Below, one piece after another: positions 1,833 to 37,586 of a stretch of DNA of 64,000 nt. Within the stretch, counting starts at the first letter, position 1. Every line of letters starts with the position of its first letter. A program made the translations under genes and the position numbers. Location: NCBI GenBank assembly GCA_963665385.1, contig OY762213.1, forward strand, positions 325,793 through 389,792. Direction: 5' to 3'. The notes under the pieces are model-generated. The model saw nothing but the letters and a program-made list of their open reading frames with translations. It was not told the DNA's origin and did not search any database. The DNA is from Dehalococcoidia bacterium. GTDB taxonomy: Bacteria > Chloroflexota > Dehalococcoidia > UBA6926.

Positions 1833-4800
1833 ATGACACAGACGATAGTGCGGCCATGGAACCCAGTGCAGGTACTGGTTCTTGTTCTCGTAGGAGCATT
1901 GATTTCAGCGCTGGTGTTAGCCTTCGCTGTTCCGGCCATTGTGCAAGCGCAATCAAACGAAGCCATCGAGTACGCCGAGAACGGCAAAGACGCGGTGGCC
2001 ACCTTTACGGCCAACGACCCGGAGGGAGGCACGTCGATTACGTGGGGAATTGCGGGCGTGGCGCCGGCACCCGATCTTCTCAGCAGCATTAATGCTACTG
2101 ACAATGAGGACTCCGCTATCTTCACGATCGATGGGGACGGGACGCTTGAATTCGCGAACCCGCCTGACTACGAAACGCCCGGGGACGTGGGCACCAACAA
2201 CATCTACCAGGTGGTGGTGACGGCCACCGACGCTGCCACAAACGGGCTGACGGGCTTCCACGAAGTTACTGTCAAGGTCACGAACGTACCAGAGCAGGGT
2301 AAGGTGACCTGGACCGTCGCACCGGACGGCAGCACCGCCGAGTCGGTAACGCAGTTCGATGTCGGCGCACTCCTAACCGCCACCGCGACAGATGGCGACA
2401 TATCAGGGGCGACTAAGACTGTAAGCAATGCCATCTGGCGGTGGTACAGGTCGGCGGACGATACCTCTACGGGGACGTTGATAGAGGGCGCAGACGCCCA
2501 AGACAATACCTACACCACCACGCTCGATGACGCGGGCATGTACCTGCGGGCCGTGGCGCACTATGTCATCTCGGGTAACGTGGACCAGGAAACCGCCTCT
2601 TTGACCTCCGACTATCCCGTGTTGGCGGAACGGGTCGGGACCAACCAACTCGAGTTCGACCCGCTCACGGAGTCCAGGGAGGTTGCCGAGGGCGACGCGG
2701 GCAGGAACGTCGGCGCCCGGGTGACGGCGGAGGGCAACCACGGCGCGGTGTACTACACGCTAGGCGGCACCGACGTGACCAAGTTTGACATCGACGAGAA
2801 GACCGGCCAGATAACGACCATGGTGGACCTGGACTTCGAAGCGGCTGCGGGGGACGGTTCTGATAACTGCTCCGCAACGAACGCCTGCCAAGTCACCGTC
2901 ACGGCGAGAGACGCCTCCGGCGATGTAACCGACACGCCGGCGACCGTGAATATCAAGATAACGGACGTGGACGAGCCGCCGACATTCCCAGCAAGCGCAG
3001 TAACGGCAGTAACGGTGCCGGAGGGCCGGACAGACCTGTTCCACGCGTCGGACAGTGAGTTCAGTGAAACAGCGGAAACTAGCGTCACCTATACGGCCAC
3101 GGATCCGGAGACCCGAAACATTGTCTACACGCTGATGGGACTGGATTCGGCAAGGTTCAAGCTCAGCAACGCACAGGTCCTCTCCTTCAGGGCGAATCCT
3201 GACTTCGAGACTCCTACGGACAGGGACAGGGATAACGTGTACGAGGTGACCGTGCGGGCATCGGACGGCACGATGAACACCGACCGGGCGGTCAAAGTTA
3301 CCGTCATCGGCATCAACGAAGCCCCGGTTGTAACGGGCAGAGACAGCGTCAACTATACGGAGAACAGCGAGAGCGTGGTTGCCACCTTCACGGCCAACGA
3401 CCCGGAGGGAGGCACGTCGATTACGTGGGGAATTGCGGGCGTGGCGCCGGCACCCGATCTTCTCAGCAGCATTAATGCTACTGACAATGAGGACTCCGCT
3501 ATCTTCACGATCGATGGGGACGGGACGCTTGAATTCGCGAACCCGCCTGACTACGAAACGCCCGGGGACGTGGGCACCAACAACATCTACCAGGTGGTGG
3601 TGACGGCCACCGACGCTGCCACAAACGGGCTGACGGGCTTCCACGAAGTTACTGTCAAGGTCACGAACGTACCAGAGCAGGGTAAGGTGACCTGGACCGT
3701 CGCACCGGACGGCAGCACCGCCGAGTCGGTAACGCAGTTCGATGTCGGCGCACTCCTAACCGCCACCGCGACCGACGGCGACATAGCAGGTGGCACTAAG
3801 ACCGTGGTATCACCCGGCGCCACGAACATCGTATGGCGGTGGTTCAGAGGAGGCGCTGTCATCCAGGGCGAGGCAGGACTCACATACACCGTGGCTCTCG
3901 GCGACGTGGGCCAGCGCATCCGCGCTTCGGTGACATACCAGGTTGGGACAAGCACAGTCCAGGAAACCGCCTCTTTGACCTCCGACTATCCCGTGTTGGC
4001 GGAACGGGTCGGGACCAACCAACTCGAGTTCGACCCGCTCACGGAGTCCAGGGAGGTTGCCGAGGGCGACGCGGGCAGGAACGTCGGCGCCCGGGTGACG
4101 GCGGAGGGCAACCACGGCGCGGTGTACTACACGCTAGGCGGCACCGACGTGACCAAGTTTGACATCGACGAGAAGACCGGCCAGATAACGACCATGGTGG
4201 ACCTGGACTTCGAAGCGGCTGCGGGGGACGGTTCTGATAACTGCTCCGCAACGAACGCCTGCCAAGTCACCGTCACGGCGAGAGACGCCTCCGGCGATGT
4301 AACCGACACGCCGGCGACCGTGAATATCAAGATAACGGACGTGGACGAGCCGCCGACGTTCGATAGCGGGGCCGAGACGGTAACAATCGACGAAGGCGTG
4401 CAGATAGTAAGGGCCGACAGTAGCGGCGACGGTGTCTTCGACAGCAGCGACACTGCCAATCTCTACGTGGCGACGGACGAGGATGGACTCAACGTCAACC
4501 TATCCCTGTTGGGGCCGGACGCAGCCGACTTCAGCCTCAGTTCCGCTGGCGTCCTCTCCTTCGTGTCGAAGCCCGACTACGAGAATCCGGTGGACGTGAA
4601 CACAGACAACCTGTACGAGGTGACCGTGCGGGCCTCAGACGGCACGAAGCACGCCGACCGGAAGGTCAGAGTTACCGTGGAAGGCATCAACGAGGCGCCG
4701 GTGATCGCCCTCGTGCCTGCAAGCGGCCTGAGGGTGTCAGGAGACGACAGAGTGTCGGTGGCCGAGGGCACAACCGCAGTGACCAGCTACACGGCCAGTG

Positions 4801-5189
4801 GCCCGAACCAGGCGTCGGCCAGGTGGACGCTGTCGGGCACGGACGCCGGAGACTTCAGGATCGGCAGCGGCAGCGGCGTGCTCACGTTCGCGGCCACGCC
4901 GGACTTCGAGGCGCCTGCGGACGGCAACGGTGACAACGTGTACGAGGTGACCGTGACGGCCACTGACAGCGAGGGCGCCAGCGACGACATAGACGTGACG
5001 GTGACAGTCACGGACGTGGATGAGACGACGCCAAGCGATCCGTTGCTTGCCGAGTTCGATCCGAACGGTGACGGCAGGATCGAGGTGGCCGACATGCGGC
5101 GGGCAGTAGGCGACTTCTTCGGAGCTATTCCAACATTCTCCGAGGCTGACATGCGGAGGCTGGTAGGCATCTTCTTCACCCAGTCGTAG
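1833..5189 (+). CDS. Secreted cadherin-like repeat protein with C-terminal dockerin/EF-hand-like Ca-binding motif
   Basis: N-terminal signal peptide; repeated VTVTATD...VTDVDE(P/A)P cadherin-type modules; C-terminus DPNGDGRIEVADMRRAV resembles dockerin type I repeat; GAGGA SD. Confidence 0.7.
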   Translation: MTQTIVRPWNPVQVLVLVLVGALISALVLAFAVPAIVQAQSNEAIEYAENGKDAVATFTANDPEGGTSITWGIAGVAPAPDLLSSINATDNEDSAIFTIDGDGTLEFANPPDYETPGDVGTNNIYQVVVTATDAATNGLTGFHEVTVKVTNVPEQGKVTWTVAPDGSTAESVTQFDVGALLTATATDGDISGATKTVSNAIWRWYRSADDTSTGTLIEGADAQDNTYTTTLDDAGMYLRAVAHYVISGNVDQETASLTSDYPVLAERVGTNQLEFDPLTESREVAEGDAGRNVGARVTAEGNHGAVYYTLGGTDVTKFDIDEKTGQITTMVDLDFEAAAGDGSDNCSATNACQVTVTARDASGDVTDTPATVNIKITDVDEPPTFPASAVTAVTVPEGRTDLFHASDSEFSETAETSVTYTATDPETRNIVYTLMGLDSARFKLSNAQVLSFRANPDFETPTDRDRDNVYEVTVRASDGTMNTDRAVKVTVIGINEAPVVTGRDSVNYTENSESVVATFTANDPEGGTSITWGIAGVAPAPDLLSSINATDNEDSAIFTIDGDGTLEFANPPDYETPGDVGTNNIYQVVVTATDAATNGLTGFHEVTVKVTNVPEQGKVTWTVAPDGSTAESVTQFDVGALLTATATDGDIAGGTKTVVSPGATNIVWRWFRGGAVIQGEAGLTYTVALGDVGQRIRASVTYQVGTSTVQETASLTSDYPVLAERVGTNQLEFDPLTESREVAEGDAGRNVGARVTAEGNHGAVYYTLGGTDVTKFDIDEKTGQITTMVDLDFEAAAGDGSDNCSATNACQVTVTARDASGDVTDTPATVNIKITDVDEPPTFDSGAETVTIDEGVQIVRADSSGDGVFDSSDTANLYVATDEDGLNVNLSLLGPDAADFSLSSAGVLSFVSKPDYENPVDVNTDNLYEVTVRASDGTKHADRKVRVTVEGINEAPVIALVPASGLRVSGDDRVSVAEGTTAVTSYTASGPNQASARWTLSGTDAGDFRIGSGSGVLTFAATPDFEAPADGNGDNVYEVTVTATDSEGASDDIDVTVTVTDVDETTPSDPLLAEFDPNGDGRIEVADMRRAVGDFFGAIPTFSEADMRRLVGIFFTQS
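1998..4368. repeat. Intragenic direct repeat, 1383-bp period, mosaic near-identity
   Basis: 1998-2395 matches 3381-3778 and 2563-2990 matches 3943-4368 almost base-for-base, separated by diverged blocks. Confidence 0.85.
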
Positions 5190-5210
5190 AGAAGCGCAAG
5201 AAAAAAGCCG

Positions 5211-5255
5211 CGGCGGGGCTGACGACGGAATAGACGTCCGCCCCGCCGTGTTGCA
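5211..5255 (+). terminator. Possible intrinsic terminator after cadherin-like gene
   Basis: gcggcggggc...gccccgccg inverted repeat followed by tgttg; weak T-tract. Confidence 0.3.
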
Positions 5256-5285
5256 TGAGGCAACTTAGGAGAACGTAGGACCGCC

Positions 5286-7730
5286 ATGAAGAGATCGCTG
5301 AAGATTGCTGTGGTGACCGCGATAGTAGCTGTCTTGGGAACGCTGGCGCTGATACAAGTGGCGGCGCAGCAACCCACAACGACGAGAGAAATCAGCCCCG
5401 CAACGCTGCCGGCGAGTGGAGGTGAGGCAACCGTGACCATCACGATCGCCGGTTCCTACGGCGGAGTTGGAGTGGTGGTGGAGACCCTGCCGGACGGATA
5501 CTCCTACGTTGATGGATCGGGGAGCATAACGCCGACAGTGAGCGGGCAGGATCTCACCTTCGCCCTGGTGGCCGATACGTCGTTCTCCTACAAGGTGATG
5601 GTCGCAGCAGATGTGGAAGCATCAGACGCCCTGATGGGCGTGCTGACATACGGGCTTACTACGAAGAGCAATGTGCCCGTGACGGGTCATACAAGCGTGA
5701 CGGTGGAACCGTCGCAGCAGCCGACAGGCGTCACAGTGACGAGGGGGATTACTCCCGCGGCGGTGGCGGCTGGCGAAGAGGCAACCGTGACCATCACGAT
5801 CGCCGGTTCCTACGGCGGAGTTGGAGTGGTGGTGGAGACCCTGCCAACCGGGTTCTCCTATGTAGCAGGATCGGGGACCATAACGCCGACAGTGAGTGGG
5901 CAGGATCTCACCTTCGCCCTGGTGGCCGATACATCGTTCTCCTATAAGGTGACGGCGTCAGACTCGGAAGGCCAACACGCCTTGGCCGGCGTGCTGACAT
6001 ACGGGCTTATGACGAAGACCAATGTGCCCGTGACGGGCGATGCCAGCGTGACAGTGCAGGCGGCACAGCCGACCGGCGTCACGGCAGCGCGGGCCATCAA
6101 CCCCGCCGCGCTTCCGGCAGGCGGAGAGGCAACCGTGACCGTCACGATTACAGGCGACTACGGCGGAGTTGGGGTGGTGGTGGAGACCCTGCCAACTGGG
6201 TTCTCCTATGTATCAGGATCGGGGACCATAACGCCGACAGTGAGCGGGCAGGATCTCACCTTCGCCTTGGTGGCCGATACATCGTTCTCCTATAAGGTGA
6301 CGGCGCCGGCTGCGGTAAGCCAGCACGTGTTTGCCGGCGAGCTGATATACGGGCTTACTACGAAGACCAATGTGCCCGTGACAGGTGATACGGCTGTGAC
6401 GGGGACGACGGCGTCCCTCACCGTATCGAGGTCCCTCAGCCCTTCTAATGTGCCGCAGAGCGGCGGCCAAGTGACGGTGAGAATCAACATCGTCGGCGAT
6501 TACGGCGGAGTTGGGGTGGTGGTGGAAACCCTGCCAAATGGGTTCTCCTATGTATCCGGATCGGGGAGCATAGCGCCGGAAGTGAACGGGCAGGATCTCA
6601 CCTTCGCCCTGGTGGCCGATACATCGTTCTCCTATAAGGTGGCGGCGCCGGCCTCGGTAGGCCGACACTCGTTTGCCGGCGAGCTGAGATACGGGATTCA
6701 GCAACCTAGATCCGTCCTCTCCGTTACAGGCGATAGGCGCGTGACAGTGGAGGCGCCGCGGACACCGTCTGACCCAGGTGGTCAGCCTCAGGCTAACCGT
6801 TCCCCGGTATTCGAGGAAGGTCGCAGCGCGACGCGCTCGATCGACGAGAATTCCGAGCCCGGGACGGCCGTCGGAGACCCGGTCACCGCCAGGGACCGTG
6901 ACGACGACACACTGATGTACAGCCTCTCTGGGGCAGATGCGGCGCTCTTCAACATCAACGAGAGCAACGGCCAAATTACGACTGCCCAGGGTACGACCCT
7001 GGACTACGAGGCCAGGAACTCCTATGACGTCACCGTGCGGGTCACTGACCCAACCGAAAGAGAAGACGACATCGACATCGCCATCAGGGTGACCAACGTT
7101 GACGAGGCTGGCGCGGTTACACTGTCGCCACAGCAGCCGATGGTCGACACGGAACTGATGGCGACCCTGACGGACCCTGACGGGTCGTTGTCGAGTCTCA
7201 GCTGGGCGTGGGAACGCTCCGCAGACAACACGACCTGGGCCGCCATAGGGGGAGCGGGGGCGAGCGCCTACACGCCGGTGGAGGCGGACGAAGGCCACTA
7301 CCTGAGGGCGACGGTGGCGTACGCCGACGGCCACGGCGGGAACAAGAGCGCGATGATGGCGTTCGCCGACCTGGTGCCGACTACAGCCACACCGGAGCCC
7401 ACAGCCACACCGGAGCCCACGGCCACACCGGAGCCCACGGCCACACCGAGGCCCACGGCCACACCGAGGCCCACAGCCACACCGAGGCCCACAGCCACAC
7501 CGGAGCCCACAGCCATACCGGAGCCCACAGCCATACCGGAGCCCACAGCCACACCGGAGCCCACAGCCATACCGGAGCCCACGGCTGCACCGGAGCCTAC
7601 GGCCACGGTTGGTCCGCCCGTGGAGCCTGAAGATGACGGCGGGTTCCCGCTATGGGCGATTGCCCTGATCGTCATCGGAGTGTTGGTAGCGGGAGGTCTC
7701 GTCTTCTACCTGATCCGGTTGAGGTCGTGA
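5286..7730 (+). CDS. Secreted surface protein: four ~110-aa repeats, cadherin-like module, (TATPEP)n linker, C-terminal TM anchor
   Basis: Signal peptide; repeats of ATVTITIAGSYGGVGVVVETLP...SFSYKV; cadherin-like VTVRVTDP...NVDEAG; C-terminal hydrophobic helix + RLRS tail (sortase/exosortase-like sorting signal); AGGAG SD. Confidence 0.7.
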   Translation: MKRSLKIAVVTAIVAVLGTLALIQVAAQQPTTTREISPATLPASGGEATVTITIAGSYGGVGVVVETLPDGYSYVDGSGSITPTVSGQDLTFALVADTSFSYKVMVAADVEASDALMGVLTYGLTTKSNVPVTGHTSVTVEPSQQPTGVTVTRGITPAAVAAGEEATVTITIAGSYGGVGVVVETLPTGFSYVAGSGTITPTVSGQDLTFALVADTSFSYKVTASDSEGQHALAGVLTYGLMTKTNVPVTGDASVTVQAAQPTGVTAARAINPAALPAGGEATVTVTITGDYGGVGVVVETLPTGFSYVSGSGTITPTVSGQDLTFALVADTSFSYKVTAPAAVSQHVFAGELIYGLTTKTNVPVTGDTAVTGTTASLTVSRSLSPSNVPQSGGQVTVRINIVGDYGGVGVVVETLPNGFSYVSGSGSIAPEVNGQDLTFALVADTSFSYKVAAPASVGRHSFAGELRYGIQQPRSVLSVTGDRRVTVEAPRTPSDPGGQPQANRSPVFEEGRSATRSIDENSEPGTAVGDPVTARDRDDDTLMYSLSGADAALFNINESNGQITTAQGTTLDYEARNSYDVTVRVTDPTEREDDIDIAIRVTNVDEAGAVTLSPQQPMVDTELMATLTDPDGSLSSLSWAWERSADNTTWAAIGGAGASAYTPVEADEGHYLRATVAYADGHGGNKSAMMAFADLVPTTATPEPTATPEPTATPEPTATPRPTATPRPTATPRPTATPEPTAIPEPTAIPEPTATPEPTAIPEPTAAPEPTATVGPPVEPEDDGGFPLWAIALIVIGVLVAGGLVFYLIRLRS
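7381..7606. repeat. 15-bp tandem repeat (about 15 copies) encoding T-A-T/I-P-E/R-P
   Basis: acagccacaccggagccc unit repeated with point variants (gag/agg, aca/ata). Confidence 0.9.
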
Positions 7731-8304: not shown

Positions 8305-8760
8305 GTGCTCTACTGGCTCCTCTTCAGCGTTTTTGCATGGACACTCGCCCGGCTGCTGACTGTCTACTTCGATGTCGAAGTGGAGAGCGTGACGTACCTC
8401 CAGTTCGTCCGCAGGTTCGGCTTCGTGTTTGCACCCGGCCTCCTCTTGATCGTGGCGCTCCTTGCCGCGCAGGGAGCCGATGACCGAGTCGCCTACGGCT
8501 ACGTCCAGAAGGAACTGGCCCTGACCGGCGGCAACCTCACAATCCACCTGCGCAAACTCGAAGACGCGAGCTACGTCGCCATCACAAAAGACTTCATCGA
8601 CGCGAAGCCCCGCACCTGGATCCAAACGACAGAGACAGGCCGCAACGCCTACGCCCGCTACGTGCACAACCTCCGCCAAACCCTAAACCTGCAACCCCCC
8701 AACCCCGCCGCACCAACCCCCAAGAAGACCCAGACCAGAACCAGCCACGCCTCAACCTGA
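8305..8760 (+). pseudogene. Divergent or degenerate paralog of the wHTH regulator (N-terminal helix replaced by hydrophobic segment)
   Basis: 8462-8706 is about 98% identical to 1210-1452 (C-terminal 85 aa identical to regulator at 1139); only GTG start with poor SD spacing. Confidence 0.4.
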
Positions 8761-8808
8761 AGCGCAAAGCGGTCCCGGCTATCCGGAGTCAGCGATGCGG
8801 GCGCCCCG

Positions 8809-9686
8809 TCACCCGCAGAAGGGCAAGCCGAGTTTGTCGAAGTCGTTGTTGGGCACGCCCTGCAATACACTGGGTACGCACCCGCTCAGCTGGTTGCCGG
8901 AGAGGCTCAGGACTACGAGATTGGAGAGGTTTCCCAGCTCCGGCGGTATCTCCCCGCTCAAGTCGTTGGAGCGGAGGTGCAGCCATTCAAGGTTGACGAG
9001 GTTTCCCAGCTCCGGCGGTATCTCCCCGCTCAAGTCGTTGGACCCGAGATACAGCTTTTGAAGGTTGGAAAGGCTGCCCAACTCCGGCGGTATCTCCCCG
9101 CTCAAGTCGTTGGAGGTGAGGTCCAGCTCCACAAGGTTGGCGAGGTTTCCCAGCTCCGGCGGTATCTCACCTCTCAATTCGTTGCCGCCGAGGTCCAGCT
9201 CCACAAGGTTGGCGAGGTTTCCCAGCTCCGGCGGTATCTCTCCGCTCAACTCGTTGGTGTAGAGGATCAGCCATTCAAGGTTTGCGAGACTGCCCAGCTC
9301 TGGCGGTATCTCCCCGGTCAAGTCCCTGGTGTTGAGGATCAGCGCTATGACCCGGCCGTTGGCGTCGACCCCGACGCCGTGCCAATTATCCAGCGGCGCG
9401 TCGCTCAGCCAGAACGCGTTCCAGCCATGCCAGTTGGGGCCGTCCGTGGCGTTGTATAGCGCCTCCAGCACCTCCCGGTCCTCAGACAGAGGTCCGCTGT
9501 CGGATACGGAAACAGGCGTAGATGTCTCCGTAGACGCTGGCGCCGGCGTATTGCCGGGCGTCATGCCGGGAGCTTGGGTTGACTGCGTGGCCCCTCTGTC
9601 GGCGATTCACCGCCGCAGGCCAGCAAAGCTGTGGAGAGGACCAGCGAGAGACTTATGAGAATTAGATTTCTCGTGATGTCAACCAT
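8809..9686 (-). pseudogene. Plant-type LRR lipoprotein, frameshifted copy
   Basis: 24-residue LRRs LxxLxLxxNxLSGEIPPELGNL; lipoprotein signal MVDITRNLILISLSLVLSTALLACGG (ATG 9686, GGGGGA SD) is out of frame with the LRR body (ATG 9564) because of a 1-bp deletion near 9587 relative to paralog at 9754-10881. Confidence 0.6.
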
Positions 9687-9753
9687 TCATATCCCCCGTT
9701 GAGATAATGGAGAAGGCCCGCTGGATCCTGGTTCCGACGAAAGCCGGCGAGCA

Positions 9754-10881
9754 TCAGCAGTACGGCAGGCCGCCGAGTTCGGACCGGTTCAATTGGCCTT
9801 GCAGGGAACTCGGCACACACCCGCTCAGCTGGTTAACGGAGAGCCACAGCTCCGTTAGGTTGGCGAGGTTGCCCAACTCGGGCGGTATCTCCCCGCTCAG
9901 CTGGTTACTGTAGAGCCGCAGGTCCGTCAGGTTGGCGAGGTTGCCCAGCTCCGGCGGTATCTCCCCGCTCAGCTGGTTATCGTAGAGCAGCAGGTCCGTC
10001 AGGTTGGCGAGGTTGCCCAACTCCGTCGGAATCTCCCCGCTCAGCTGGTTACTGCCGAGCCGCAGGTTCGTCAGGTTGGCGAGGCTGCCCAACTCCGGCG
10101 GAATCTCCCCGCTCAACTGGTTACTGGAGAGGATCAGGTCCGTCAGGTTGGCGAGGTTGCCCAACTCGGGCGGAATCTCCCCGCTCAACTGGTTACCGTT
10201 GAGGTCCAGGTCCCGCAGGTTGGCGAGGGCGCCCAACTCCGTCGGAATCTCCCCGCTCAACTGGTTACTGCCGAGCCACAGGTCCGTCAGGTTGGCGAGG
10301 CTGCCCAACTCGGGCGGAATCTCCCCGCTCAACTGGTTACCGTTGAGGTCCAGGTCCCGCAGGTTGGCGAGGGCGCCCAACTCCGGCGGAATCTCCCCGC
10401 TCAACTGGTTCCAGGCGATCCACAGGTTCGTCAGGTTGGCGAGGTTGCCCAACTCCGGCGGAATCTCCCCGCTCAACTGGTTACTCTGGAGGATCAGCTT
10501 TACGACACGGTCGCTGTTGTCGGTAGTAACGCCGTTCCAGCTGCCCAGCGGTTCGTCGGTCAGCCAGTTGTCACTGTACTTCCAGTTGGGTCCGCCCGTG
10601 GCGTTGTAGAGGGCGACTAGAGCGTCTCTGTCCCGGGACGGAGACCCGCTGTCAAGCGCGGGGATGAAGCTGGGCGCGTCGGCGGACGCGGGCGCCGGCG
10701 TATTGCCGGGCGTCATGCCGGGAGCTTGGGTTGACTGCGTTGGCCCCTCCGTCGGCGATTCACCGCCGCAGGCCACCAGGGACGCCGCGGCAAGCGTCGT
10801 CAGCAGGAGGGCTAGGGTCGCTTGCCGGGCTTTCCTCCGCAGGTCGCGTGGATCCACGTAGACGGACCAGCCTTTGATCAT
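9754..10881 (-). CDS. Plant-type LRR lipoprotein (about 12 LRRs, LRRNT-like cap, C-terminal Cys pair)
   Basis: MIKGWSV...LLTTLAAASLVACGG lipobox; ALYNATGGPNWKYSDNWLTDEPLGSWNGVT cap; repeats GEIPPELGNLANLTxLxLxxNQLS; AGGAGA SD before ATG 10881. Confidence 0.75.
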   Translation of the reverse strand: MIKGWSVYVDPRDLRRKARQATLALLLTTLAAASLVACGGESPTEGPTQSTQAPGMTPGNTPAPASADAPSFIPALDSGSPSRDRDALVALYNATGGPNWKYSDNWLTDEPLGSWNGVTTDNSDRVVKLILQSNQLSGEIPPELGNLANLTNLWIAWNQLSGEIPPELGALANLRDLDLNGNQLSGEIPPELGSLANLTDLWLGSNQLSGEIPTELGALANLRDLDLNGNQLSGEIPPELGNLANLTDLILSSNQLSGEIPPELGSLANLTNLRLGSNQLSGEIPTELGNLANLTDLLLYDNQLSGEIPPELGNLANLTDLRLYSNQLSGEIPPELGNLANLTELWLSVNQLSGCVPSSLQGQLNRSELGGLPYC

Positions 10882-11007
10882 TCTATCTCTCCTTTCCCAG
10901 GCGGCTGAGGCGCTCCCATCAGCGCCTGCGAAAGGTGCCTGGGCGTAGGCCTCGTCAGCTCTGTCTTCTCCGCCAGGCGCCAAGGCCAACCTGTGCGGTG
11001 ACGTGCC

Positions 11008-11961
11008 TCATCCCCTGCTGCGGCGCCTGTTCAGGCCGGGGATGAGCTGGAGCGCGAATATGACCGTGAAGCAGACGCTGGCCAGTAATACGCCAAGGAA
11101 GGGGAACGTCGCCGCGCCGACCCCGGGCGGGGCGAAGTCTGCAAAGAAGTGCTTCGCGAATAGCTGCTCCCCGAGGAAGTAGAGCCACGAGAAGGAAGTA
11201 ACGAGGAAACCTGCAACAGCGACGATTGCCACCACAAAGCGGGGCAGCACGATTGAGGCGATGCTCAACAGAGCCAACACGAGCAGGATGCCGAAGAGCA
11301 CGCGGGGTTGGGCCATCTCCAGCGTGTCGGCTGCCGCCAGGAGGGTGTAACTCATGCTCTGCCACTCCTCCTGGATGCCCCTCCACACCTCTTGATCGTA
11401 GGACACCGAGAAGATGACCCATGGCATGAAGAGGCTGAGCAGCGTGACCACGCCGAGGATCGCGCTTCCGACGCCGGCGGGGTTCATTCGCACGAATCCG
11501 GGGAGGTCGCTATCCCCTAACAGCGTCGGGGCCTGGGCGCTCTGGCCATCTCCGGCTGCGGCTACAGATTCCGCCTCTTCACCGGCGTCACCACCGCCGT
11601 TGGCTAGACCGGACCGGCGCGCCTGAGCGCTTTTGAGCACTGTACTCAGCCATGCGATGGTGGCCGGGTTCCGTTGCAACGCATGGCGATGCTGGAACTG
11701 TAAGGCGGCAATGGCCCCGAACGACAACAGAATCAGCAAGAAGGCCGTAGAACTGACGATGAGCAGGATGATCAGTCCCAGCGCGGCTATAGCTATCCTT
11801 GTCTCCACCTGCACGGCGTGGGGCACGAAATAGGTGCCTGTTGCCGCCAGTCCGAGAAGCCCCAGGAGGAGTTTGTAGACTAGCGGGACGCCAAGTATGA
11901 AGGCGGATAGTAGGATGACGACGCCAAGGCCGGGAACGATGAGCCGTTCTTGGATTTGCAT
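11008..11961 (-). CDS. Hypothetical polytopic membrane protein
   Basis: 317-aa ORF, multiple hydrophobic helices, no recognisable motif. Confidence 0.45.
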   Translation of the reverse strand: MQIQERLIVPGLGVVILLSAFILGVPLVYKLLLGLLGLAATGTYFVPHAVQVETRIAIAALGLIILLIVSSTAFLLILLSFGAIAALQFQHRHALQRNPATIAWLSTVLKSAQARRSGLANGGGDAGEEAESVAAAGDGQSAQAPTLLGDSDLPGFVRMNPAGVGSAILGVVTLLSLFMPWVIFSVSYDQEVWRGIQEEWQSMSYTLLAAADTLEMAQPRVLFGILLVLALLSIASIVLPRFVVAIVAVAGFLVTSFSWLYFLGEQLFAKHFFADFAPPGVGAATFPFLGVLLASVCFTVIFALQLIPGLNRRRSRG

Positions 11962-12352
11962 TTGCTCAACTCCTAACGATGATGGGCCGCGTCGTGGTTG
12001 TTACCGCCCCAGGCGTTGACCGTTCCGTCGCATCCCAGGAGGAACCCTACGTGCGGGAGAGTTGGCGGCGCGAGTCGCCTCGAGCGCAGGCTTCACCTCG
12101 ACTGCCGCCGGTGTCGATGCTGTTGCCTGTTCAGGTTTTCTCTGTCGAAAGCCAAGCGGACACACCCCTTCCGGGAAAATCCACTGAGAAGATATCATAA
12201 AATGTGTAACGAAGGTGTAACAAATGGGCGAATTACCATAACAATGTGTAATCATTCGCAGAAACTGGCACAATTGCCCCTGCTGACGCCAAATTTCTGT
12301 GTCCCGTGACGGCGGGAGCGCCCGGGGCCCCGGCGCCCATCGAGGTGACGAA

Positions 12353-17794: not shown

Positions 17795-19357
17795 TCATTC
17801 GGTGGGCCGATGAAAGTACGAAGACGGCCCATCCAACCACCTGTTCTCCAGCTGCGTCTCAACGAGATCTTCGACCCGAGCCATCTCGACACTGTCGGCC
17901 TTTACAGGAGCGCCTGGTTTGACCACCCCTCCAGCAACGTAGACGTGCCGTTTTTCGTAAAGGTAGTCGCATCCAAAAAGGCAGAGCGGCATGACGATGT
18001 AAGGATCACGACGCTCCCCTTCGTTGCAATGCTCGCGACGCTTCTTGTGAGCCGTCACTAAAGCCTCAACAGCAAACTCGCGACCACAGAGGGCGCACAG
18101 TTCCCTTTCTTTGTCCTCGAAGAGCCATTCACTCAAAATGTGTTGCTCCGTGCGTGCCGACTGTTCAGAAGTGGAGTCCGTGTCCCTGAGTTCATCCAGA
18201 CGGTTCCTAAATGTCAGGTAGCGCTCCAACGCCGGTTCGTTTGGGCGCACAGAATCCTGTGTCTCAACGGTTGAATACCTGTAGTTTTGTCTGCCATAGG
18301 ATTCGTCAACAAAGACTAGAGGAGAATTCGTGAGAGCCTTCTGAATAGCGGCCTCAGAATACCTCCCGATATTCTTATCTTCCAAGAAGCGCCTAATTTC
18401 TGGTAGTTGTGTTTCACCCCGTTCCTTCAAATATTGAACTGCATCATTCTCCAACGGACTTAAGGCTGGGGCTCTACCCTTAGGTCTAAAGGTCCGTGAG
18501 AGGCTGAGATTATTGCCTTGCGCAACGAAGAGCCGAGATGTGCGAAGATACTGCTCAATTGTTTCGACGGGGGGAAGCAGGTCCTCGTTTATCCGCTTTA
18601 GTGCCCTATGAATTGACGGAGCCAATTTACCCACGTCGCATACTTGGAAAGCAGTCAGGGCCTTTCTTGCGGCGTTGATTAGGGCATTCTGTTTTTCTTC
18701 GAACAAATACCAAGTGACACCTCCCGCCTCTCTAGTCCACGTGGTGGGGTTGCCGCGGATGATTTGGATTGCAAACCCCTTGTTAACGCGATAGAAATTG
18801 TCTACCATCTCCAGATCCTCGAAACGAACGATGCCCCGTAGTCCCTGAAGCTTCCTTGCTGTGGCAAGGTGCGCCTTAAGAGAGTCCAATTGGCCTTGGT
18901 CTACCAAGAAGAAGTCATTTGAATCGTATGTGCCACTGCTGGTGACTCTTTGGAGTTCGGGGGTGTAGGAATCGTGTCTGTGGGGCAGACTCATGTCGTC
19001 GGCTAGGCGCAAGAGGCCCGGTAAGCTCAAGGATCCTATGGGAAAGCCCCGACGTAGTGATTCTGCTTGAAGTTCAGAAGCAGTCCAAAACGCCCGAGAC
19101 TCTACCGTATCTAGGACTTTCTGCAATGACGGCAATGTGGCGAAAGGCGATTGACTGCGGAAGTCTCTCTGCAAGATCTGTCCAACCCGCTGTTTACTCA
19201 AACCGAAGTCGTCCCCAGCTTGTTGAAGCGTTGGCAATGGTGGTTGCCCAAAGCCGTAGTAATGGCAAATGAGGTCGATGTTTCGAAGTTTTTCTCCCCG
19301 CGAATGCTCTCTAATATTCTTGTCAAGGAATGCACGTATTTCGCCAAGTATAGTCAT
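17795..19357 (-). CDS. Orphan protein with N-terminal sigma-70 region-4-like HTH and C-terminal HNH nuclease motif
   Basis: N-terminal LSKQRVGQILQRD HTH; C-terminal CALCG...VTAHKKRREHCNEG...PLCLFGCD fits CxxC...H...N...C...C HNH pattern; local GC about 50% vs about 62% flanks. Confidence 0.55.
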   Translation of the reverse strand: MTILGEIRAFLDKNIREHSRGEKLRNIDLICHYYGFGQPPLPTLQQAGDDFGLSKQRVGQILQRDFRSQSPFATLPSLQKVLDTVESRAFWTASELQAESLRRGFPIGSLSLPGLLRLADDMSLPHRHDSYTPELQRVTSSGTYDSNDFFLVDQGQLDSLKAHLATARKLQGLRGIVRFEDLEMVDNFYRVNKGFAIQIIRGNPTTWTREAGGVTWYLFEEKQNALINAARKALTAFQVCDVGKLAPSIHRALKRINEDLLPPVETIEQYLRTSRLFVAQGNNLSLSRTFRPKGRAPALSPLENDAVQYLKERGETQLPEIRRFLEDKNIGRYSEAAIQKALTNSPLVFVDESYGRQNYRYSTVETQDSVRPNEPALERYLTFRNRLDELRDTDSTSEQSARTEQHILSEWLFEDKERELCALCGREFAVEALVTAHKKRREHCNEGERRDPYIVMPLCLFGCDYLYEKRHVYVAGGVVKPGAPVKADSVEMARVEDLVETQLENRWLDGPSSYFHRPTE

Positions 19358-19396: not shown

Positions 19397-20683
19397 CTAC
19401 CCCCCCGCCGTCCGCGCCGCCACCCGCACATCCCTAGCGAAGCTGGTCCGTAGTGCGAGAGCAATTGCGAACATCACCGCGATCGCCCCGCCGATGCCCA
19501 CCGCCGTCGGCGCGCCGAACCACTCCGCCAGCGCCCCCACCTGCAGGCCGCCCAGCGGAATCAGGCTGTACGTCAGGCTGAACACGCCCATCACCCGGCC
19601 CCGCAGGTCCTCCGGCACCGCGCTCTGCAGCAGCGTCAGATTGGTTATTTGGGACAACGAGTTAAAGGTTCCCGATAGGAATAGCGCGCCAAGCGACAGC
19701 CACAGGACCGTGCTGAATGCGAACAGCATCACCATCGCCCCAAACAGTCCGCCGCCGCCCAGCAACAAGACGAGCGGCCAGCGACCCTTCACCCAGAACG
19801 CCGCAAGGCCCGTGCCGATGAGCCCGCCCGCCGCCGATGCCCCCAACATCATCCCCATGCCGTCCGCGCCTATGCCCAGGATGTCCCGCGCGAAGACCGG
19901 CATCAGTTGGATATACGCCACGCCAAAGAAACTGTCCACGAACGTCAGCAGGATAAGACTCGCGAAGAGGTTGCGACGTGCGATGAACGTGATCCCCTCG
20001 AACAGTTCCTTGAACACGTTGCCGCGAACCCGATCCACGCGGGGAATCCGCACGAAAAAGAGGAGCAGCGTGCCAAGTCCGTAGCCCAGGGTTACCGACC
20101 CGAACGTCGCCGCGGAACCGATGCGCTCGATCAGCACTCCGCCCAGACCCGGGCCAAACACCCGTGTCCCTTGCCACACGGACGAGCTGAGCGCCAGGGC
20201 GTTCATCAGCAGCCGTCGGTCCGGAATCAGCGCCGGGACCACCGCCGTGCGTGTCGGCTGATCGATTCCCTGGATGACTCCGATGGCTGCGGACGCCGCC
20301 AGCAGGTGCCACGGTGCGAGTACCTCCCCAAATGTCAGCATCATCAGGACCGTCACCGTGATGGTCATGCAGACCTGCGTGGCGATAAGCAGTGCCAGCC
20401 GACTGACCCGGTCTGCCGCCACCCCACCAATCAGGTTCACGCTGATCGTGCCGAACCCCATGGCGAAACCCAGGTAGCCGAGGAAGATCTCCGAATTGGT
20501 CAGCTCATACCCCTCCCACGCAATGACGATGCGCAGGATCTGCCAGCCCATCACGAACGAGACCGCGCTGAACCAGTAATTCCGGAAATTGGGGACGGCC
20601 AGAGAGCCGAGAGGAGACGTAACGGCGCGGTGCGTCTGCTCTTGCTCCTGCTGTTCAGTATCCGTTTCGCGCGGAGTGGACAT
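19397..20683 (-). CDS. MFS transporter
   Basis: 12 predicted TM helices, MFS-like loop motifs; start MSTPRE (alternative upstream ATG 20722). Confidence 0.75.
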   Translation of the reverse strand: MSTPRETDTEQQEQEQTHRAVTSPLGSLAVPNFRNYWFSAVSFVMGWQILRIVIAWEGYELTNSEIFLGYLGFAMGFGTISVNLIGGVAADRVSRLALLIATQVCMTITVTVLMMLTFGEVLAPWHLLAASAAIGVIQGIDQPTRTAVVPALIPDRRLLMNALALSSSVWQGTRVFGPGLGGVLIERIGSAATFGSVTLGYGLGTLLLFFVRIPRVDRVRGNVFKELFEGITFIARRNLFASLILLTFVDSFFGVAYIQLMPVFARDILGIGADGMGMMLGASAAGGLIGTGLAAFWVKGRWPLVLLLGGGGLFGAMVMLFAFSTVLWLSLGALFLSGTFNSLSQITNLTLLQSAVPEDLRGRVMGVFSLTYSLIPLGGLQVGALAEWFGAPTAVGIGGAIAVMFAIALALRTSFARDVRVAARTAGG

Positions 20684-20934
20684 TAACCTCGTTCCGCGAA
20701 TCCCAGGGCAAGCCTGCCCCATACGTGATAGGGGCGGGGGCGGGGAGGAATCCGTAGGCGCATATAATACAGCGGATGCCGTTGCCCACGCCGCCGGTGT
20801 GGACTCTCACCGGGGCGCCAGTGCGAGCGGCATCTCTGGGGGATACGTGTCCGCATTCGTTGAACAGAGTGCCGGTCCGCGCGAATCGCGTCGGCAACGC
20901 CGCGCGCCCTCTGGCAAACGCAACCGCTCAAGCA

Positions 20935-23688: not shown

Positions 23689-23771
23689 CAGAGACGCCTA
23701 AGACTCCGATGCCGGAACGCGGCGAACCAACGTATTCAATAACCCAATACGAATCGCGAACCGAGAAAAAA

Positions 23772-23845
23772 TCGGGGCGCCCGGATTTGAACCGGGGACC
23801 TCCGCGTCCCGAACGCGGCGCGCTGCCAAACTGCGCTACGCCCCG
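23772..23845 (-). tRNA. tRNA-Pro (anticodon CGG), CCA not encoded
   Basis: CGGGGCGTAGCGCAGTTTGGCAGCGCG CCGCG TTCGGGA CGCGG ... CCCGG TTCAAAT CCGGG CGCCCCG A. Confidence 0.85.
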
Positions 23846-23957
23846 ACCGACAAACAAACCGCGGGCAGCAAAACCGCCCGCTCGCTTAAGAGTATACGGG
23901 TATCCGCCCCACAAAGAATCCCCTCCCTCACAGAGGGGGGAGGGTTAGGGTGGGGGG

Positions 23958-24704
23958 CTAATCGGTCAAGATAGATCGGGCAATTGGTTCGAGCACGCGC
24001 TGGACTTCCTCATCAAGCTCGTCCTGCGGGTAGTGGACGGGTTGCTTGGCCGCGCCGGGCCCGCGGCCGGGCCATCGTTTGGCTAGAGCTTTTGCAAGGT
24101 GAGGGAATTCCTTAAAGTCAAGTAGCCTACACCGACTCTGGGCATCTATATTCTGAAGCCAACCTTGGAGTGAAATACGGAGCTTTAGAGATCTCAATGC
24201 AGAGCGGGTATGGATTTCACGGGCATTGGTCAGACTAGAACCAAATGTGAATTGGGCGTCTTTCAATTCCTGATCCTGTAACCAGAGGCCACGGGCGAAC
24301 ACATCCCGTTCAATTCGTTCGGGGTCGGATTCTCGTGCCGGAATAAGTTCTTGCCAACTGGAGTTTGTCAGGCCCGAATTCCGTATACCTAACCGACATT
24401 TGGCCCCAAGGGCTTGCCAGAGAAACTTCTGCTCGCCTGGCTCGAGATTCGTGGATTTGAGCAAGTGTGAAATCGACAGTGCCCGCCCCAATGACCACCG
24501 CCGTACGAATGCTAACTCTGCTTGAGATTCAGCCTCGACGGAGATGACGAGTTCCAGTGCATTGTCCAGCATGTCGTCGATTTCACGGTCAAGATCCTCG
24601 GCAATGGCTCGGTGCTCCTCTTCTCCGAACCGGTAACGGCGTGTTGTGCGCACGCGATCATCGTGACTACCAGAATCAGATTCTGACCAGAGCAAGACCG
24701 GCAT
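23958..24704 (-). CDS. Hypothetical protein, third gene of HARE-HTH/GHKL operon (translationally coupled)
   Basis: ATGA start/stop overlap with upstream ATPase gene; 248 aa, no recognisable motif. Confidence 0.5.
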   Translation of the reverse strand: MPVLLWSESDSGSHDDRVRTTRRYRFGEEEHRAIAEDLDREIDDMLDNALELVISVEAESQAELAFVRRWSLGRALSISHLLKSTNLEPGEQKFLWQALGAKCRLGIRNSGLTNSSWQELIPARESDPERIERDVFARGLWLQDQELKDAQFTFGSSLTNAREIHTRSALRSLKLRISLQGWLQNIDAQSRCRLLDFKEFPHLAKALAKRWPGRGPGAAKQPVHYPQDELDEEVQRVLEPIARSILTD

Positions 24705-27253: not shown

Positions 27254-27272
27254 GGCTCGAGCCCTCCCCTCT

Positions 27273-27755
27273 CTAGCCGCCCCGCGTCCGGCGCCGCGCC
27301 GGCCGTTGCCGCGCCCCCACATTTCGGGCATTTGGAAAGTCCTTACGAAGACCATAGAAGCCCTTGGACGTAGGCCGCACGAAGCGTTCATCTAGTACGA
27401 GTCGCGCCACCAGCGTGGCAGGAGGATCGTTGCCGTTGATTTGTCCACCGAGCCGCTGCACTTCCTTCGCTAGGTCCTTGTAATACATCGGCTTGTTCGG
27501 CTGCTGCAGCAACACCTTCTCCGCTAGATCGGTTATCGATTCTCCATCGGAGCGATGTTCAGCTGGACTGCTTGCTGTTGAACTGTCCGTCGACGTTTCA
27601 ACATGCTCATCGGCAAGTAGACCGTCCACGTGGCGGAGCCGTTCAATGATTTTGGCCAAGCGTTGTTCTGATTCGGCAATCTTTTCTCGGACCTCTTCCA
27701 ACTCCGCCCGCAGGCTTGTTCGTTCCGTCTGTAACATTCGCTCTAACACGGTCAT
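27273..27755 (-). CDS. Coiled-coil + HARE-HTH domain protein
   Basis: N-terminal coiled coil; C-terminus MYYKDLAKEV...ATLVARLVLDERFVRPTSKGFYGLRKDF matches HARE-HTH / RNAP delta N-domain pattern (DGRF...WGLR); GGAGGGG SD. Confidence 0.55.
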   Translation of the reverse strand: MTVLERMLQTERTSLRAELEEVREKIAESEQRLAKIIERLRHVDGLLADEHVETSTDSSTASSPAEHRSDGESITDLAEKVLLQQPNKPMYYKDLAKEVQRLGGQINGNDPPATLVARLVLDERFVRPTSKGFYGLRKDFPNARNVGARQRPARRRTRGG

Positions 27756-32603: not shown

Positions 32604-32969
32604 GCCTAGCCCCTTCAATTGCGCGCTGATAAACTCAGCGATCCCACGAAGCCCTTTCCTCCCTGATGTAGTCGTCAACGTCCTTGGCAGACTTGAATAG
32701 TAGGTGGCCCGGCGCCTCCGCCATGATGTCCGCAATCGAACGCTTCTTTGGCGTGGGTTCTTCTGACGCGGGTGCAATCGTCACGTCGACGTCCTCGCCC
32801 TCGGTCATCCTCCGAGGTCAATATTAACGCAATCGACCGAAAGTGGCGGCTGCTTCTTGTCCGCAAGGCGCCACGCCGCCGAAGCTCCACCCGAATAGGC
32901 GTATACTTATGTTCTCGCTACGAATCAGTAAATCGTCATATCGCTCTCGTTAATCGACAGGACACTTTC

Positions 32970-34517: not shown

Positions 34518-34533
34518 CCGATACCCGTCGGCT

Positions 34534-35853: not shown

Positions 35854-35984
35854 TCCTGAACGTCCTGCGCGTGAGTTCGGAGAAAACCGCGTCTACCCGA
35901 CAATGCGAATGAAAGCTCATATAGCCTAGCATTCGCGCCCAACACCTCGTACTTGGGGTGACATAAGGGGCGTACCATGGATGA

Positions 35985-37391: not shown

Positions 37392-37586
37392 TCGCCCCGT
37401 ACCCACACTCCCTCCCCGCCATTCCCCAACACTCCCGACACGCCACTACGCGGAAAACCAGACATCAAGCACGGCATGTCGGGGCCACCGGTCTATGACC
37501 GTCAATGCCGGAACGCGGAGTCAAACCTCATAGGCAAATCAAAGTTGACCGCGAGCCGAGAAAACAAAGGGGCGTACCATTGATGA

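What the first reader, a model, noticed from the sequence alone, without database searches (positions are those of the whole stretch)
8809..10881. Paralogous lipoproteins with plant-type LRRs; one copy inactivated by a 1-bp deletion
Both proteins consist of 24-residue LRRs with the plant-specific consensus LxxLxLxxNxLSGxIPxxLGxLxx. Each has an LRRNT-like cap (ALYNATxGPNW...W.GV) and a C-terminal Cys pair. This architecture is rare in bacteria and is usually linked to host or cell interaction. In the shorter copy the lipoprotein signal peptide (ATG 9686) is out of frame with the LRR body. A single base is missing near 9587 relative to the paralog: ctgcgtTggcccc versus ctgcgtggcccc. Possible explanations are a pseudogene, a sequencing error or a slippage-prone site.
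Basis: seen in the sequence. Interest (0 to 1): 0.55.

Follow-up and report, generated by a model that had tools for sequence, protein, structure and literature searches.

The report
Frameshifted plant-type LRR lipoprotein paralog
Two neighbouring genes encode surface lipoproteins built from plant-style leucine-rich repeats, a protein type that is common in Chloroflexota related to sponge symbionts; one copy has lost a single base, which cuts its export signal off from the rest of the protein, so this is an ordinary, very recent gene loss or a consensus error.

Summary
The long copy (9754-10881, minus strand) is intact: lipoprotein signal, linker, helical N-cap, ten exact 24-residue plant-specific-class LRRs and a C-terminal Cys pair. 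The short copy has the same plan with seven LRRs. It lacks one A of CCAACG at 9587/9588, nine codons after the lipobox Cys. This splits it into a 41-codon signal-peptide ORF (9561-9686) and a 251-codon LRR ORF (8809-9564).

The only two public DNA relatives, both Chloroflexota MAGs, keep the base in frame. A distant homolog runs from the short copy's signal peptide into the LRR body in one frame. The short copy has no other lesion, and about 40 other window genes look full-length. I therefore favour a very young real frameshift (about 0.55) over a consensus error (about 0.3). Only reads can decide.

"Rare in bacteria" is not supported: the cap module matches 7301 cluster representatives, though their taxonomy was not checked. 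The site is not slippage-prone. The LRRNT_2 match is below threshold and the cap has no Cys.

Extra finding: the paralogs are mosaics. A roughly 90-nt block starting at the lipobox has been homogenised within this genome by gene conversion.

Verdict: a new member of a known kind, of low to moderate interest.

The parts
9754..10881 (-). Long copy, intact CDS (375 aa from ATG 10881). An alternative GTG start at 10857 matches the start called in relative L003. A Shine-Dalgarno-like AAGGAGAG lies upstream of the ATG.
   Evidence: Pfam LRR_1/LRR_4/LRR_8/LRR_14
10768..10881 (-). Long-copy lipoprotein signal peptide, ending in the lipobox L-V-A-C (Cys38 codon at 10768-10770).
   Evidence: PROSITE-like rule is met from the GTG start; 87-97% nt identity to the L002/L003 signal region
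10685..10776 (-). Long-copy version of the homogenised block (lipobox Cys plus GGESPTEGPTQSTQAPGMTPGNTPAPA), with CCAACG intact.
10507..10635 (-). Long-copy N-terminal cap (DRDALVALYNATGGPNW...W.GV).
9787..10506 (-). Long-copy array of ten 24-residue PS-class LRRs (72-nt period). The last repeat carries Cys355; the final Cys375 is at the C-terminus (9757-9759).
9561..9686 (-). Short-copy orphaned signal-peptide ORF (41 codons, lipobox L-L-A-C, Cys24). GGGGGA lies 5 nt upstream of ATG 9686. After the deletion it reads out of frame and ends at TGA 9563-9561.
   Evidence: colinear with the signal peptide of P0088
9587..9588 (-). Site of the missing base: CCACG here versus CCAACG in the long copy and in L002/L003. 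This is a -1 frame change nine codons after the lipobox Cys.
9533..9623 (-). Short-copy version of the homogenised block. It is 97-100% identical to the long copy, which is more than either copy is to L002/L003.
8809..9564 (-). Short-copy LRR body ORF (251 codons, no internal stops). Its first possible start is ATG 9564, which has no Shine-Dalgarno sequence and no signal peptide.
   Evidence: AlphaFold2 pLDDT 93.4
9561..9564 (-). ATGA overlap between the stop of the signal-peptide ORF and the first ATG of the LRR ORF, created by the frame change.
   Evidence: read
9352..9486 (-). Short-copy N-terminal cap (EDREVLEALYNATDGPNW...W.GV). Residues 25-39 of the 251-aa ORF are predicted as a helix.
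8848..9351 (-). Short-copy array of seven 24-residue PS-class LRRs. All scaffold positions are intact, apart from the first repeat's V at position 1 and R in place of the conserved N. The last repeat carries the first Cys of the C-terminal pair.

Best explanation
The locus holds two tandem, same-strand genes for single-module surface LRR lipoproteins.

Each protein has five parts, in order:
- a Sec/lipoprotein signal with a lipobox;
- a Pro/Thr-rich linker;
- a helical N-cap;
- a solenoid of exact 24-residue plant-specific-class LRRs;
- a C-terminal cap with two Cys.

Inferred mode of action. The protein is exported and lipid-anchored on the outer face of the membrane. It binds a partner through the concave beta-sheet face, whose positions 2, 3, 5, 7 and 8 are the only variable ones. 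In this lineage it belongs with the 'eukaryotic-like' LRR proteins that are proposed to mediate symbiont-host contact.

The downstream, shorter copy has lost one A nine codons after the lipobox Cys. As sequenced, the signal peptide is translated as a 41-residue dead-end peptide, and the LRR domain has no export signal. The copy is therefore a null allele, that is, a very young pseudogene.

The two genes evolve by recombination. A block of about 90 nt starting at the lipobox has been homogenised between them by gene conversion. Relatives carry other combinations of signal, linker and body.

Shown here: the anatomy, the deletion, the intact state in relatives, the fold class and the mosaicism.
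Inferred only: lipidation, surface display, the binding function, and that the deletion is real rather than a consensus error.
For: - Deletion and frames.
- Both public relatives carrying the block (L002, a Dehalococcoidia MAG chromosome; L003, Chloroflexota APA_bin_2) keep CCAACG in frame. L002 encodes an intact 255-aa protein.
- Homolog P0088 is colinear from the short copy's signal peptide through the LRRs. Family members typically start with a lipobox.
- Youth of the lesion: there are no other stops in 251 codons, all LRR scaffold positions are intact, and the block differs from the long copy by about 2 substitutions.
- Assembly quality: about 40 other genes in the window give single long ORFs. 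Those with a Pfam family are mostly covered end to end, for example DnaK 1-598/599, PFK 1-277/277 and AmtB 1-399/399. Random indel error is therefore rare here.
- PS-LRR class: repeat length and consensus (consensus from PMC2946307). PDB phmmer top hit is FLS2 at 3.6e-169, followed by further plant receptor kinases. The AlphaFold2 model has pLDDT 93.4 with an N-cap helix. All 50 best Foldseek PDB hits are plant LRR proteins, mostly receptor ectodomains plus PGIP.
- Mosaicism and gene conversion.
- Context: cadherin-domain surface proteins and a DsbA-like gene lie nearby. LRR and cadherin Pfam families are the operational 'eukaryotic-like domain' classes in sponge symbionts (PMC11706023; PMC6306507).
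Against: - No reads are available, so a consensus error cannot be excluded.
- 7 of the 120 best homologs in public assemblies also end in out-of-frame LRR tails. This could mean real turnover, or it could mean these GC-rich repeat genes attract assembly errors.
- dN/dS between the short copy and L002 is 0.68. That value fits diversifying selection as well as relaxed constraint, so it says nothing about when function was lost.
- No orthologous short copy from a close strain could be found.
- The binding partner and lipidation are untested.
- The window's own provenance is unknown.
Confidence: 0.55

Rival explanations
1. The missing base is a consensus or assembly error, and the organism carries two intact LRR lipoprotein genes.
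For: There is only a single lesion and the ORF is otherwise perfect. The lesion lies inside a stretch that is nearly identical between the two paralogs, where polishing could go wrong. Out-of-frame tails are seen in 7 of 120 database homologs, as expected if such genes are error-prone in metagenome assemblies.
Against: About 40 other genes in the 64-kb window are full-length, with no sign of indel noise. The site is a 2-base run, not a long homopolymer. Neither paralog nor either relative offers a template with the deletion, so paralog cross-mapping would not create it.
Confidence: 0.3
2. The frameshifted copy is still expressed. Ribosomes finishing the 41-codon ORF reinitiate at the overlapping ATG (ATGA, 9564-9561) and make a cytoplasmic LRR protein without a signal. 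Alternatively, a -1 ribosomal frameshift restores the lipoprotein.
For: The frame change happens to create an ATGA stop/start overlap. The LRR ORF is intact and folds confidently.
Against: There is no Shine-Dalgarno sequence before ATG 9564. The 45-nt overlap window contains no X XXY YYZ slippery heptamer (read). The same sequence is simply in frame in the paralog and in both relatives. A domain with a conserved Cys pair, in a family that is otherwise built for export, is unlikely to work in the cytoplasm.
Confidence: 0.08
3. The site is a phase-variation or on-off switch, or the short copy is a silent donor cassette for recombination-driven variation of the expressed long copy.
For: The genes show clear mosaicism and intragenomic gene conversion. 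Signal-plus-linker modules are shared between different bodies in other genomes (P0003, P0090, P0124, P0131 and P0134). The locus is rearranged in L003, and in L002 the gene lies inside a duplicated segment.
Against: AA is far too short for slipped-strand phase variation. No invertase, no inverted repeats and no repeat tract lie at the site. The window holds only two copies. The block is not more conserved between genomes than its flanks are.
Confidence: 0.05

Closest known systems
Plant extracellular PS-class LRR proteins (PGIP; ectodomains of FLS2, PEPR1, MIK2, BRI1)
   Same: Both have 24-residue repeats of the form LxxLxLxxNxL(S/T)GxIPxxLGxLxx, an N-terminal helical cap, and Cys after the last repeat. 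The best sequence match is FLS2 at 3.6e-169. The best fold matches have TM-scores (query-normalised) up to 0.80, and PGIP scores 0.74-0.76. Variability is concentrated on the concave-face positions.
   Different: The protein is bacterial and anchored by a lipobox rather than a transmembrane helix and kinase. The N-cap lacks the plant Cys pair and scores below the LRRNT_2 threshold. There are no island domains, only 7-10 repeats, and the scaffold is nearly invariant.
Eukaryotic-like LRR proteins of sponge-associated bacteria (the ELP/ELD class)
   Same: The proteins match the Pfam families used to define that class (PF00560, PF12799, PF13855, PMC11706023). The nearest DNA relative is a MAG whose name, APA_bin_2, follows a scheme used for Aplysina aerophoba MAGs. 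LRR genes have been reported in sponge SAR202 and Caldilineae genomes (PMC6306507). Cadherin-domain proteins lie next door.
   Different: That class is defined by domain content only, and no function is established for its LRR members. The window's own source is unknown. The lipoprotein architecture and the cap/LRR/Cys-pair module are more specific than the ELP label.
Leptospira LRR lipoproteins (LIC10831, LIC11098, LIC12759; PDB 4u06, 4u08, 4u09)
   Same: These are bacterial LRR proteins, which I recall (from memory) to be surface lipoproteins. They are found by sequence at E = 4e-49 to 4e-58.
   Different: They match far more weakly than the plant receptors do. From my own knowledge, they have a different repeat class and length. 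They lack the ALYNAT..G.NW cap and the C-terminal C...C motif.
Internalins and Xanthomonas T3SS LRR effectors (InlA, XopL, XopAE, XopAC)
   Same: They share generic LRR similarity (NCBIfam E-values 1e-7 to 1e-23).
   Different: Scores of 29-84 bits are far below the family cut-offs of 450-1600 bits. The window proteins have no LPXTG or GW anchor and no effector domain, so they are not members.

Membership tests
Plant-specific (PS) class of LRRs | Repeat length of 23-25 residues with consensus LxxLxLxxNxL(t/s)GxIPxxLGxLxx (PMC2946307) | tested here: met
   All repeats are exactly 24 residues. Positions 4, 11, 13-16, 18-20, 22 and 24 are invariant across 15 repeats.
Plant-specific (PS) class of LRRs | Closest sequence and fold relatives are plant extracellular LRR domains | tested here: met
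   The phmmer search of PDB is led by FLS2, GSO1, RGFR and PEPR1, and plant receptor ectodomains fill the top of the list. All 50 top Foldseek hits are plant LRR proteins, mostly receptor ectodomains plus PGIP; the model has pLDDT 93.4.
Pfam LRRNT_2 (PF08263) N-terminal cap | Score at or above the gathering threshold (20.7 bits) | tested here: not met
   The long-copy cap scores 14.9 bits (E = 0.033). The short-copy and L002 caps give no hit. There is a sub-threshold PF18805 (LRR_10) match instead.
Pfam LRRNT_2 (PF08263) N-terminal cap | Cys pair in the cap (plant C.W.GV.C, stated from my own knowledge) | tested here: not met
   There is no Cys between the lipobox and the last LRR. The motif reads W.GV without Cys.
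Pfam LRRNT_2 (PF08263) N-terminal cap | A helix that caps the first repeat | tested here: met
   The AlphaFold2 model has a helix at residues 25-39 (DREVLEALYNATDG) before the first strand.
Bacterial lipoproteins (Lgt/LspA substrates) | n-region, h-region and lipobox [LVI][ASTVI][GAS]C within the first ~35 residues | tested here: met
   A PROSITE PS51257-like rule, written from memory, is met by the short-copy ORF (Cys24) and by the long copy from GTG 10857 (Cys30). From ATG 10881 the Cys is at position 38.
Bacterial lipoproteins (Lgt/LspA substrates) | Signal peptide in frame with the mature domain | tested here: not met
   This is met for the long copy but not for the short copy as sequenced.
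Bacterial lipoproteins (Lgt/LspA substrates) | Actual lipidation, and presence of lgt/lspA in the genome | not testable with these tools
   Only a 64-kb window is available and there is no experiment.
Sponge-symbiont eukaryotic-like proteins, LRR class | Carries PF00560, PF12799 or PF13855 (operational definition in PMC11706023) | tested here: met
Sponge-symbiont eukaryotic-like proteins, LRR class | The organism is a sponge symbiont | tested here: inconclusive
   The nearest DNA relatives are Chloroflexota APA_bin_2 (the name follows a scheme used for A. aerophoba sponge MAGs) and an uncultured Dehalococcoidia MAG. The window's own source is not given and was not found in any collection.
Internalins / Xanthomonas LRR effectors (NCBIfam) | Score at or above the curated cut-off | tested here: not met
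   The proteins score 29-84 bits against cut-offs of 450-1600 bits.
Pseudogene | Reading frame disrupted relative to intact homologs | tested here: met
Pseudogene | The disruption is present in the DNA of the organism, not only in the consensus | not testable with these tools
   No reads are available and no close strain was found.

The most novel reading that the evidence does not exclude
The block of about 90 nt that begins at the lipobox Cys codon acts as a shared recombination joint. Through it, promoter-plus-signal modules and LRR bodies are swapped among paralogs. The frameshifted copy would then serve as a silent reservoir for varying the displayed LRR surface. This would be a cassette-style surface-variation system in uncultured Chloroflexota symbionts.
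Probability: 0.07. Interest if true: 0.6.

Novelty: new member of a known kind. Interest (0 to 1): 0.22.

Why it matters
The locus is a clean, well-resolved example of the LRR 'eukaryotic-like' surface proteins that are thought to mediate contact between uncultured Chloroflexota and their hosts.

It shows three things about them:
- they are lipoproteins built from a reusable cap/PS-LRR/Cys-pair module;
- the module is very widespread;
- the genes turn over quickly, through gene conversion, changes in repeat number and frameshifts.

For annotation, the short copy should be flagged as a frameshifted pseudogene or a candidate error, not called as a 251-aa cytoplasmic protein. Nothing here challenges current knowledge.

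Tried and rejected
- Exact look-ups of four window proteins in the public gene index found nothing, so the source genome and its strains are not available.
- A search of metagenome contigs for the block, allowing the base to be present or absent, gave 0 hits. A protein-guided metagenome scan with the short copy's N-terminus gave only weak signal-peptide matches. No strain-level comparison was therefore possible.
- A full-length protein search was swamped by repeat-rich relatives. A search with the N-terminus alone found one close partial relative, P0121 = L003.
- Programmed -1 frameshifting was rejected: there is no slippery heptamer in the overlap window. Slipped-strand phase variation was rejected: the run is only AA.
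- LRRNT_2 membership was rejected on score and on the absence of Cys. Internalin and Xop effector membership was rejected on score.
- dN/dS was computed but is uninformative about inactivation.
- Literature searches for the MAG accessions gave nothing. The meaning of 'APA' was taken from PMC11706023.
Full report

Yes. Three ORFs lie on the minus strand:
- 9754-10989 holds the long copy. Its best start is ATG 10881, preceded by AAGGAGAG.
- 8809-9564 is a 251-codon ORF that is LRR throughout.
- 9561-9686 is a 41-codon ORF, MVDITRNLILISLSLVLSTALLAC|GGESPTEGPRSQPKLPA, in another frame.

Aligning the two genes shows a block of about 90 nt. It starts just before the lipobox Cys codon and is 97-100% identical between the copies. 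It contains a single gap: GGGGCCAACGCAGTC in the long copy against GGGGCCACGCAGTC in the short copy. Adding one A back gives a continuous 292-aa protein. The block motifs occur exactly twice in the window, against 0 expected in shuffles.

**2. Anatomy.**

Both proteins have the same five parts, in order:
- a signal peptide with a lipobox (LVAC in the long copy, LLAC in the short copy). Both pass a PROSITE PS51257-like rule that I wrote from memory. The long copy passes only when started at GTG 10857, which is the start called in relative L003;
- a Pro/Thr/Ser-rich linker;
- a cap, DR(E/D)xLxALYNATxGPNW...W.GV;
- LRRs spaced exactly 24 residues apart, 7 in the short copy and 10 in the long copy (72-nt period);
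- an ending LSGCVPSxLQ...LP(F/Y)C, which holds the only two other Cys.

Across 15 repeats the scaffold NxLSGEIPPELGxLxN is essentially invariant. Variation is confined to positions 2, 3, 5, 7 and 8 (1.9-2.7 bits), which form the concave beta-strand face of LRRs. This matches the published PS-class consensus LxxLxLxxNxL(t/s)GxIPxxLGxLxx, with length 23-25 (PMC2946307).

**3. Fold and nearest solved relatives.**

- Pfam finds only generic LRR families.
- A phmmer search of PDB is headed by plant receptor ectodomains: FLS2 at 3.6e-169, then GSO1, RGFR, PEPR1, MIK2 and BRI1. Bacterial LRR proteins such as the Leptospira LIC proteins come far behind.
- An AlphaFold2 model of the 251-aa ORF is confident (pLDDT 93.4, pTM 0.87). 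It shows an N-terminal capping helix followed by regular strand/short-helix units.
- All 50 best Foldseek PDB matches are plant LRR proteins, mostly receptor ectodomains plus PGIP.

The 'plant-type' label is therefore justified. The cap is only LRRNT-like. The LRRNT_2 match is below threshold (14.9 against 20.7 bits, long copy only), and the plant Cys pair is absent.

**4. How common is this?**

- The full-length search returned at least 6809 proteins at E <= 1e-10 among the 8000 candidates scored.
- The best hits share the same plan of lipobox, cap, PS-LRRs and LSGC...LPFC ending.
- The 57-residue cap alone, searched against 1.84 billion cluster representatives, matches 7301 proteins at E <= 1e-3 and 1697 at E <= 1e-10. 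Many are giants of 1000-4900 aa with up to 20 copies of the module.
- Caveat: that library carries no taxonomy, and I did not check the source organisms beyond the best hits.

The window genes are single-module members of a large family.

**5. Relatives and the state of the frameshift site.**

The source genome is not in the searchable collections. Only two public sequences carry the block:
- L002 is OX638292.1, an uncultured Dehalococcoidia MAG chromosome.
- L003 (= L001) is Chloroflexota APA_bin_2. 'APA_bin' names are used for Aplysina aerophoba sponge MAGs in PMC11706023.

Both keep CCAACG in frame. L002 encodes an intact 255-aa lipoprotein with 5 LRRs. JGI metagenome contigs gave nothing.

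A more distant homolog, P0088, aligns from residue 6 of the short copy's signal peptide (RNLILISLSLVLSTALLACG against RNLVLLTITSVLSAILLGCG) straight through the cap and LRRs in one frame.

**6. Real mutation or error?**

This cannot be decided without reads. The indirect evidence points both ways.

For a very recent event of either kind:
- The short copy has no other defect: no stops in 251 codons, and every scaffold residue of 7 repeats is intact.
- Its block differs from the long copy's by only about two substitutions.

Against a generally noisy assembly:
- About 40 other genes across the window are single long ORFs.
- Those with a Pfam family are mostly covered end to end: DnaK 1-598/599, PFK 1-277/277, AmtB 1-399/399, HisRS, MetK, CinA and others.

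Against a technical cause specific to this site:
- The site is a 2-base run.
- No paralog or relative offers a deleted template.

For a technical or recurrent cause:
- 7 of the 120 best database homologs end in tails that are out-of-frame translations of LRR DNA, such as ...GEIRRRSWAI and ...GGYRQSWATSPN. Frameshifts in this family are therefore frequent in public assemblies, whether biological or technical.

I put a real frameshift at about 0.55 and a consensus error at about 0.3.

**7. Consequence if real.**

- The body frame has no start upstream of ATG 9564, and that ATG has no Shine-Dalgarno sequence. Any product would lack the export signal.
- The frame change happens to create an ATGA stop/start overlap at 9564-9561. 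Some reinitiation is conceivable, but it would give a cytoplasmic protein from a family that is otherwise built for export and carries a conserved Cys pair.
- The overlap window has no X XXY YYZ heptamer and no long homopolymer. Programmed frameshifting and slipped-strand phase variation are therefore unlikely.
- dN/dS values (0.68 for short copy against L002; 0.41 for short against long) fit a fast-evolving binding protein and do not date the loss.

**8. Mosaic evolution (beyond the finding).**

A sliding comparison shows a mosaic pattern:
- The signal region of the long copy is 87-97% identical to L002/L003, while the short copy's signal is unrelated.
- The block is most similar between the two window copies. 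They share a 6-nt insertion and about five shared base differences from L002/L003.
- The linker after the block is 87-90% identical between the short copy and L002/L003, but only 50-57% between the long copy and L002/L003.

So the block has been homogenised within this genome by gene conversion, and signal and body modules have been recombined between lineages. Supporting observations:
- The long copy contains internal stretches of about 80 nt that are identical between repeat pairs.
- L003 has the locus rearranged.
- In L002 the gene lies between 300-nt direct repeats that are 99% identical.
- In other genomes, several different LRR bodies share one signal-plus-linker module (P0003, P0090, P0124, P0131 and P0134).

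**9. Context and likely role.**

The genes sit in an ordinary chromosomal region (hisS, dnaK-grpE-hrcA, metK, ahcY, pfk). Immediately beside them are two large cadherin-domain surface proteins, a winged-helix regulator and a DsbA-like oxidoreductase.

LRR and cadherin domains are among the 'eukaryotic-like domain' classes enriched in sponge symbionts and proposed to mediate host interaction (PMC11706023). LRR genes have been reported in sponge SAR202 and Caldilineae genomes (PMC6306507).

The mechanism I commit to is a lipid-anchored, surface-displayed binding module whose variable concave face recognises an external, probably host, ligand. This is inference; no member has been characterised.

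**10. Verdict.**

- the architecture is not rare;
- the cap is not a bona fide LRRNT_2;
- the site is not slippage-prone.

This is a new member of a known kind, and the frameshift is an ordinary young pseudogene or a consensus error. Interest is low to moderate. The mosaic and gene-conversion pattern is the most interesting by-product.

Noticed in passing
window 23771-27755: Three minus-strand ORFs of 248, 895 and 160 aa lie directly next to tRNA-Pro(cgg) at 23771-23846. Only the 160-aa ORF has a Pfam hit (HARE-HTH). The stretch has 53-56% GC against about 61% elsewhere, and atypical codon use. This may be an island inserted at the tRNA, possibly a defence or restriction-like module.
   Followed up: partly
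window 17795-19357: A 520-aa minus-strand ORF has no Pfam family and lies in a 51% GC pocket, so it looks foreign to the surrounding genes.
   Followed up: no
window 1833-7730: Two large plus-strand surface proteins carry cadherin domains (1118 and 814 aa). The second has four internal repeats of about 110 aa, a long (PTATPE)n linker and a C-terminal transmembrane helix. Together with the LRR genes they form a small cluster of 'eukaryotic-like' surface proteins.
   Followed up: partly
L002 4855-5154 and 6712-7011: In the Dehalococcoidia MAG chromosome the orthologous LRR gene (5829-6596) lies between 300-nt direct repeats that are 99% identical. By eye, and without a family search, nearby ORFs look ThiF/JAB (PRTRC-like). 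A further lone LRR unit sits at 7171-7238. This suggests a segmental duplication or a mobile context. The P0036 locus (L007) likewise has a relaxase, an IS66 transposase and an integrase next to the LRR gene.
   Followed up: partly
L001/L003 1069-1520 versus window 11937-12175 and 8741-8848: In the APA_bin_2 contig the GAF gene and its intergenic region are 89-93% identical to the window. The 317-aa membrane-protein gene is missing. Instead, 109 nt matching the tail and downstream region of the short copy come directly before an LRR gene with a long-copy-type 5' end. The locus is therefore rearranged between close relatives, or the 2-kb contig is chimeric.
   Followed up: partly
proteins P0147-P0295: Many relatives are giant proteins of 1000-4900 aa that carry up to 20 tandem copies of the same cap-plus-LRR module.
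   Followed up: no
window 32748-38981: Four consecutive MFS transporter genes (two on each side of a strand switch) lie in a row, and a fifth is at 19397-20722.
   Followed up: no
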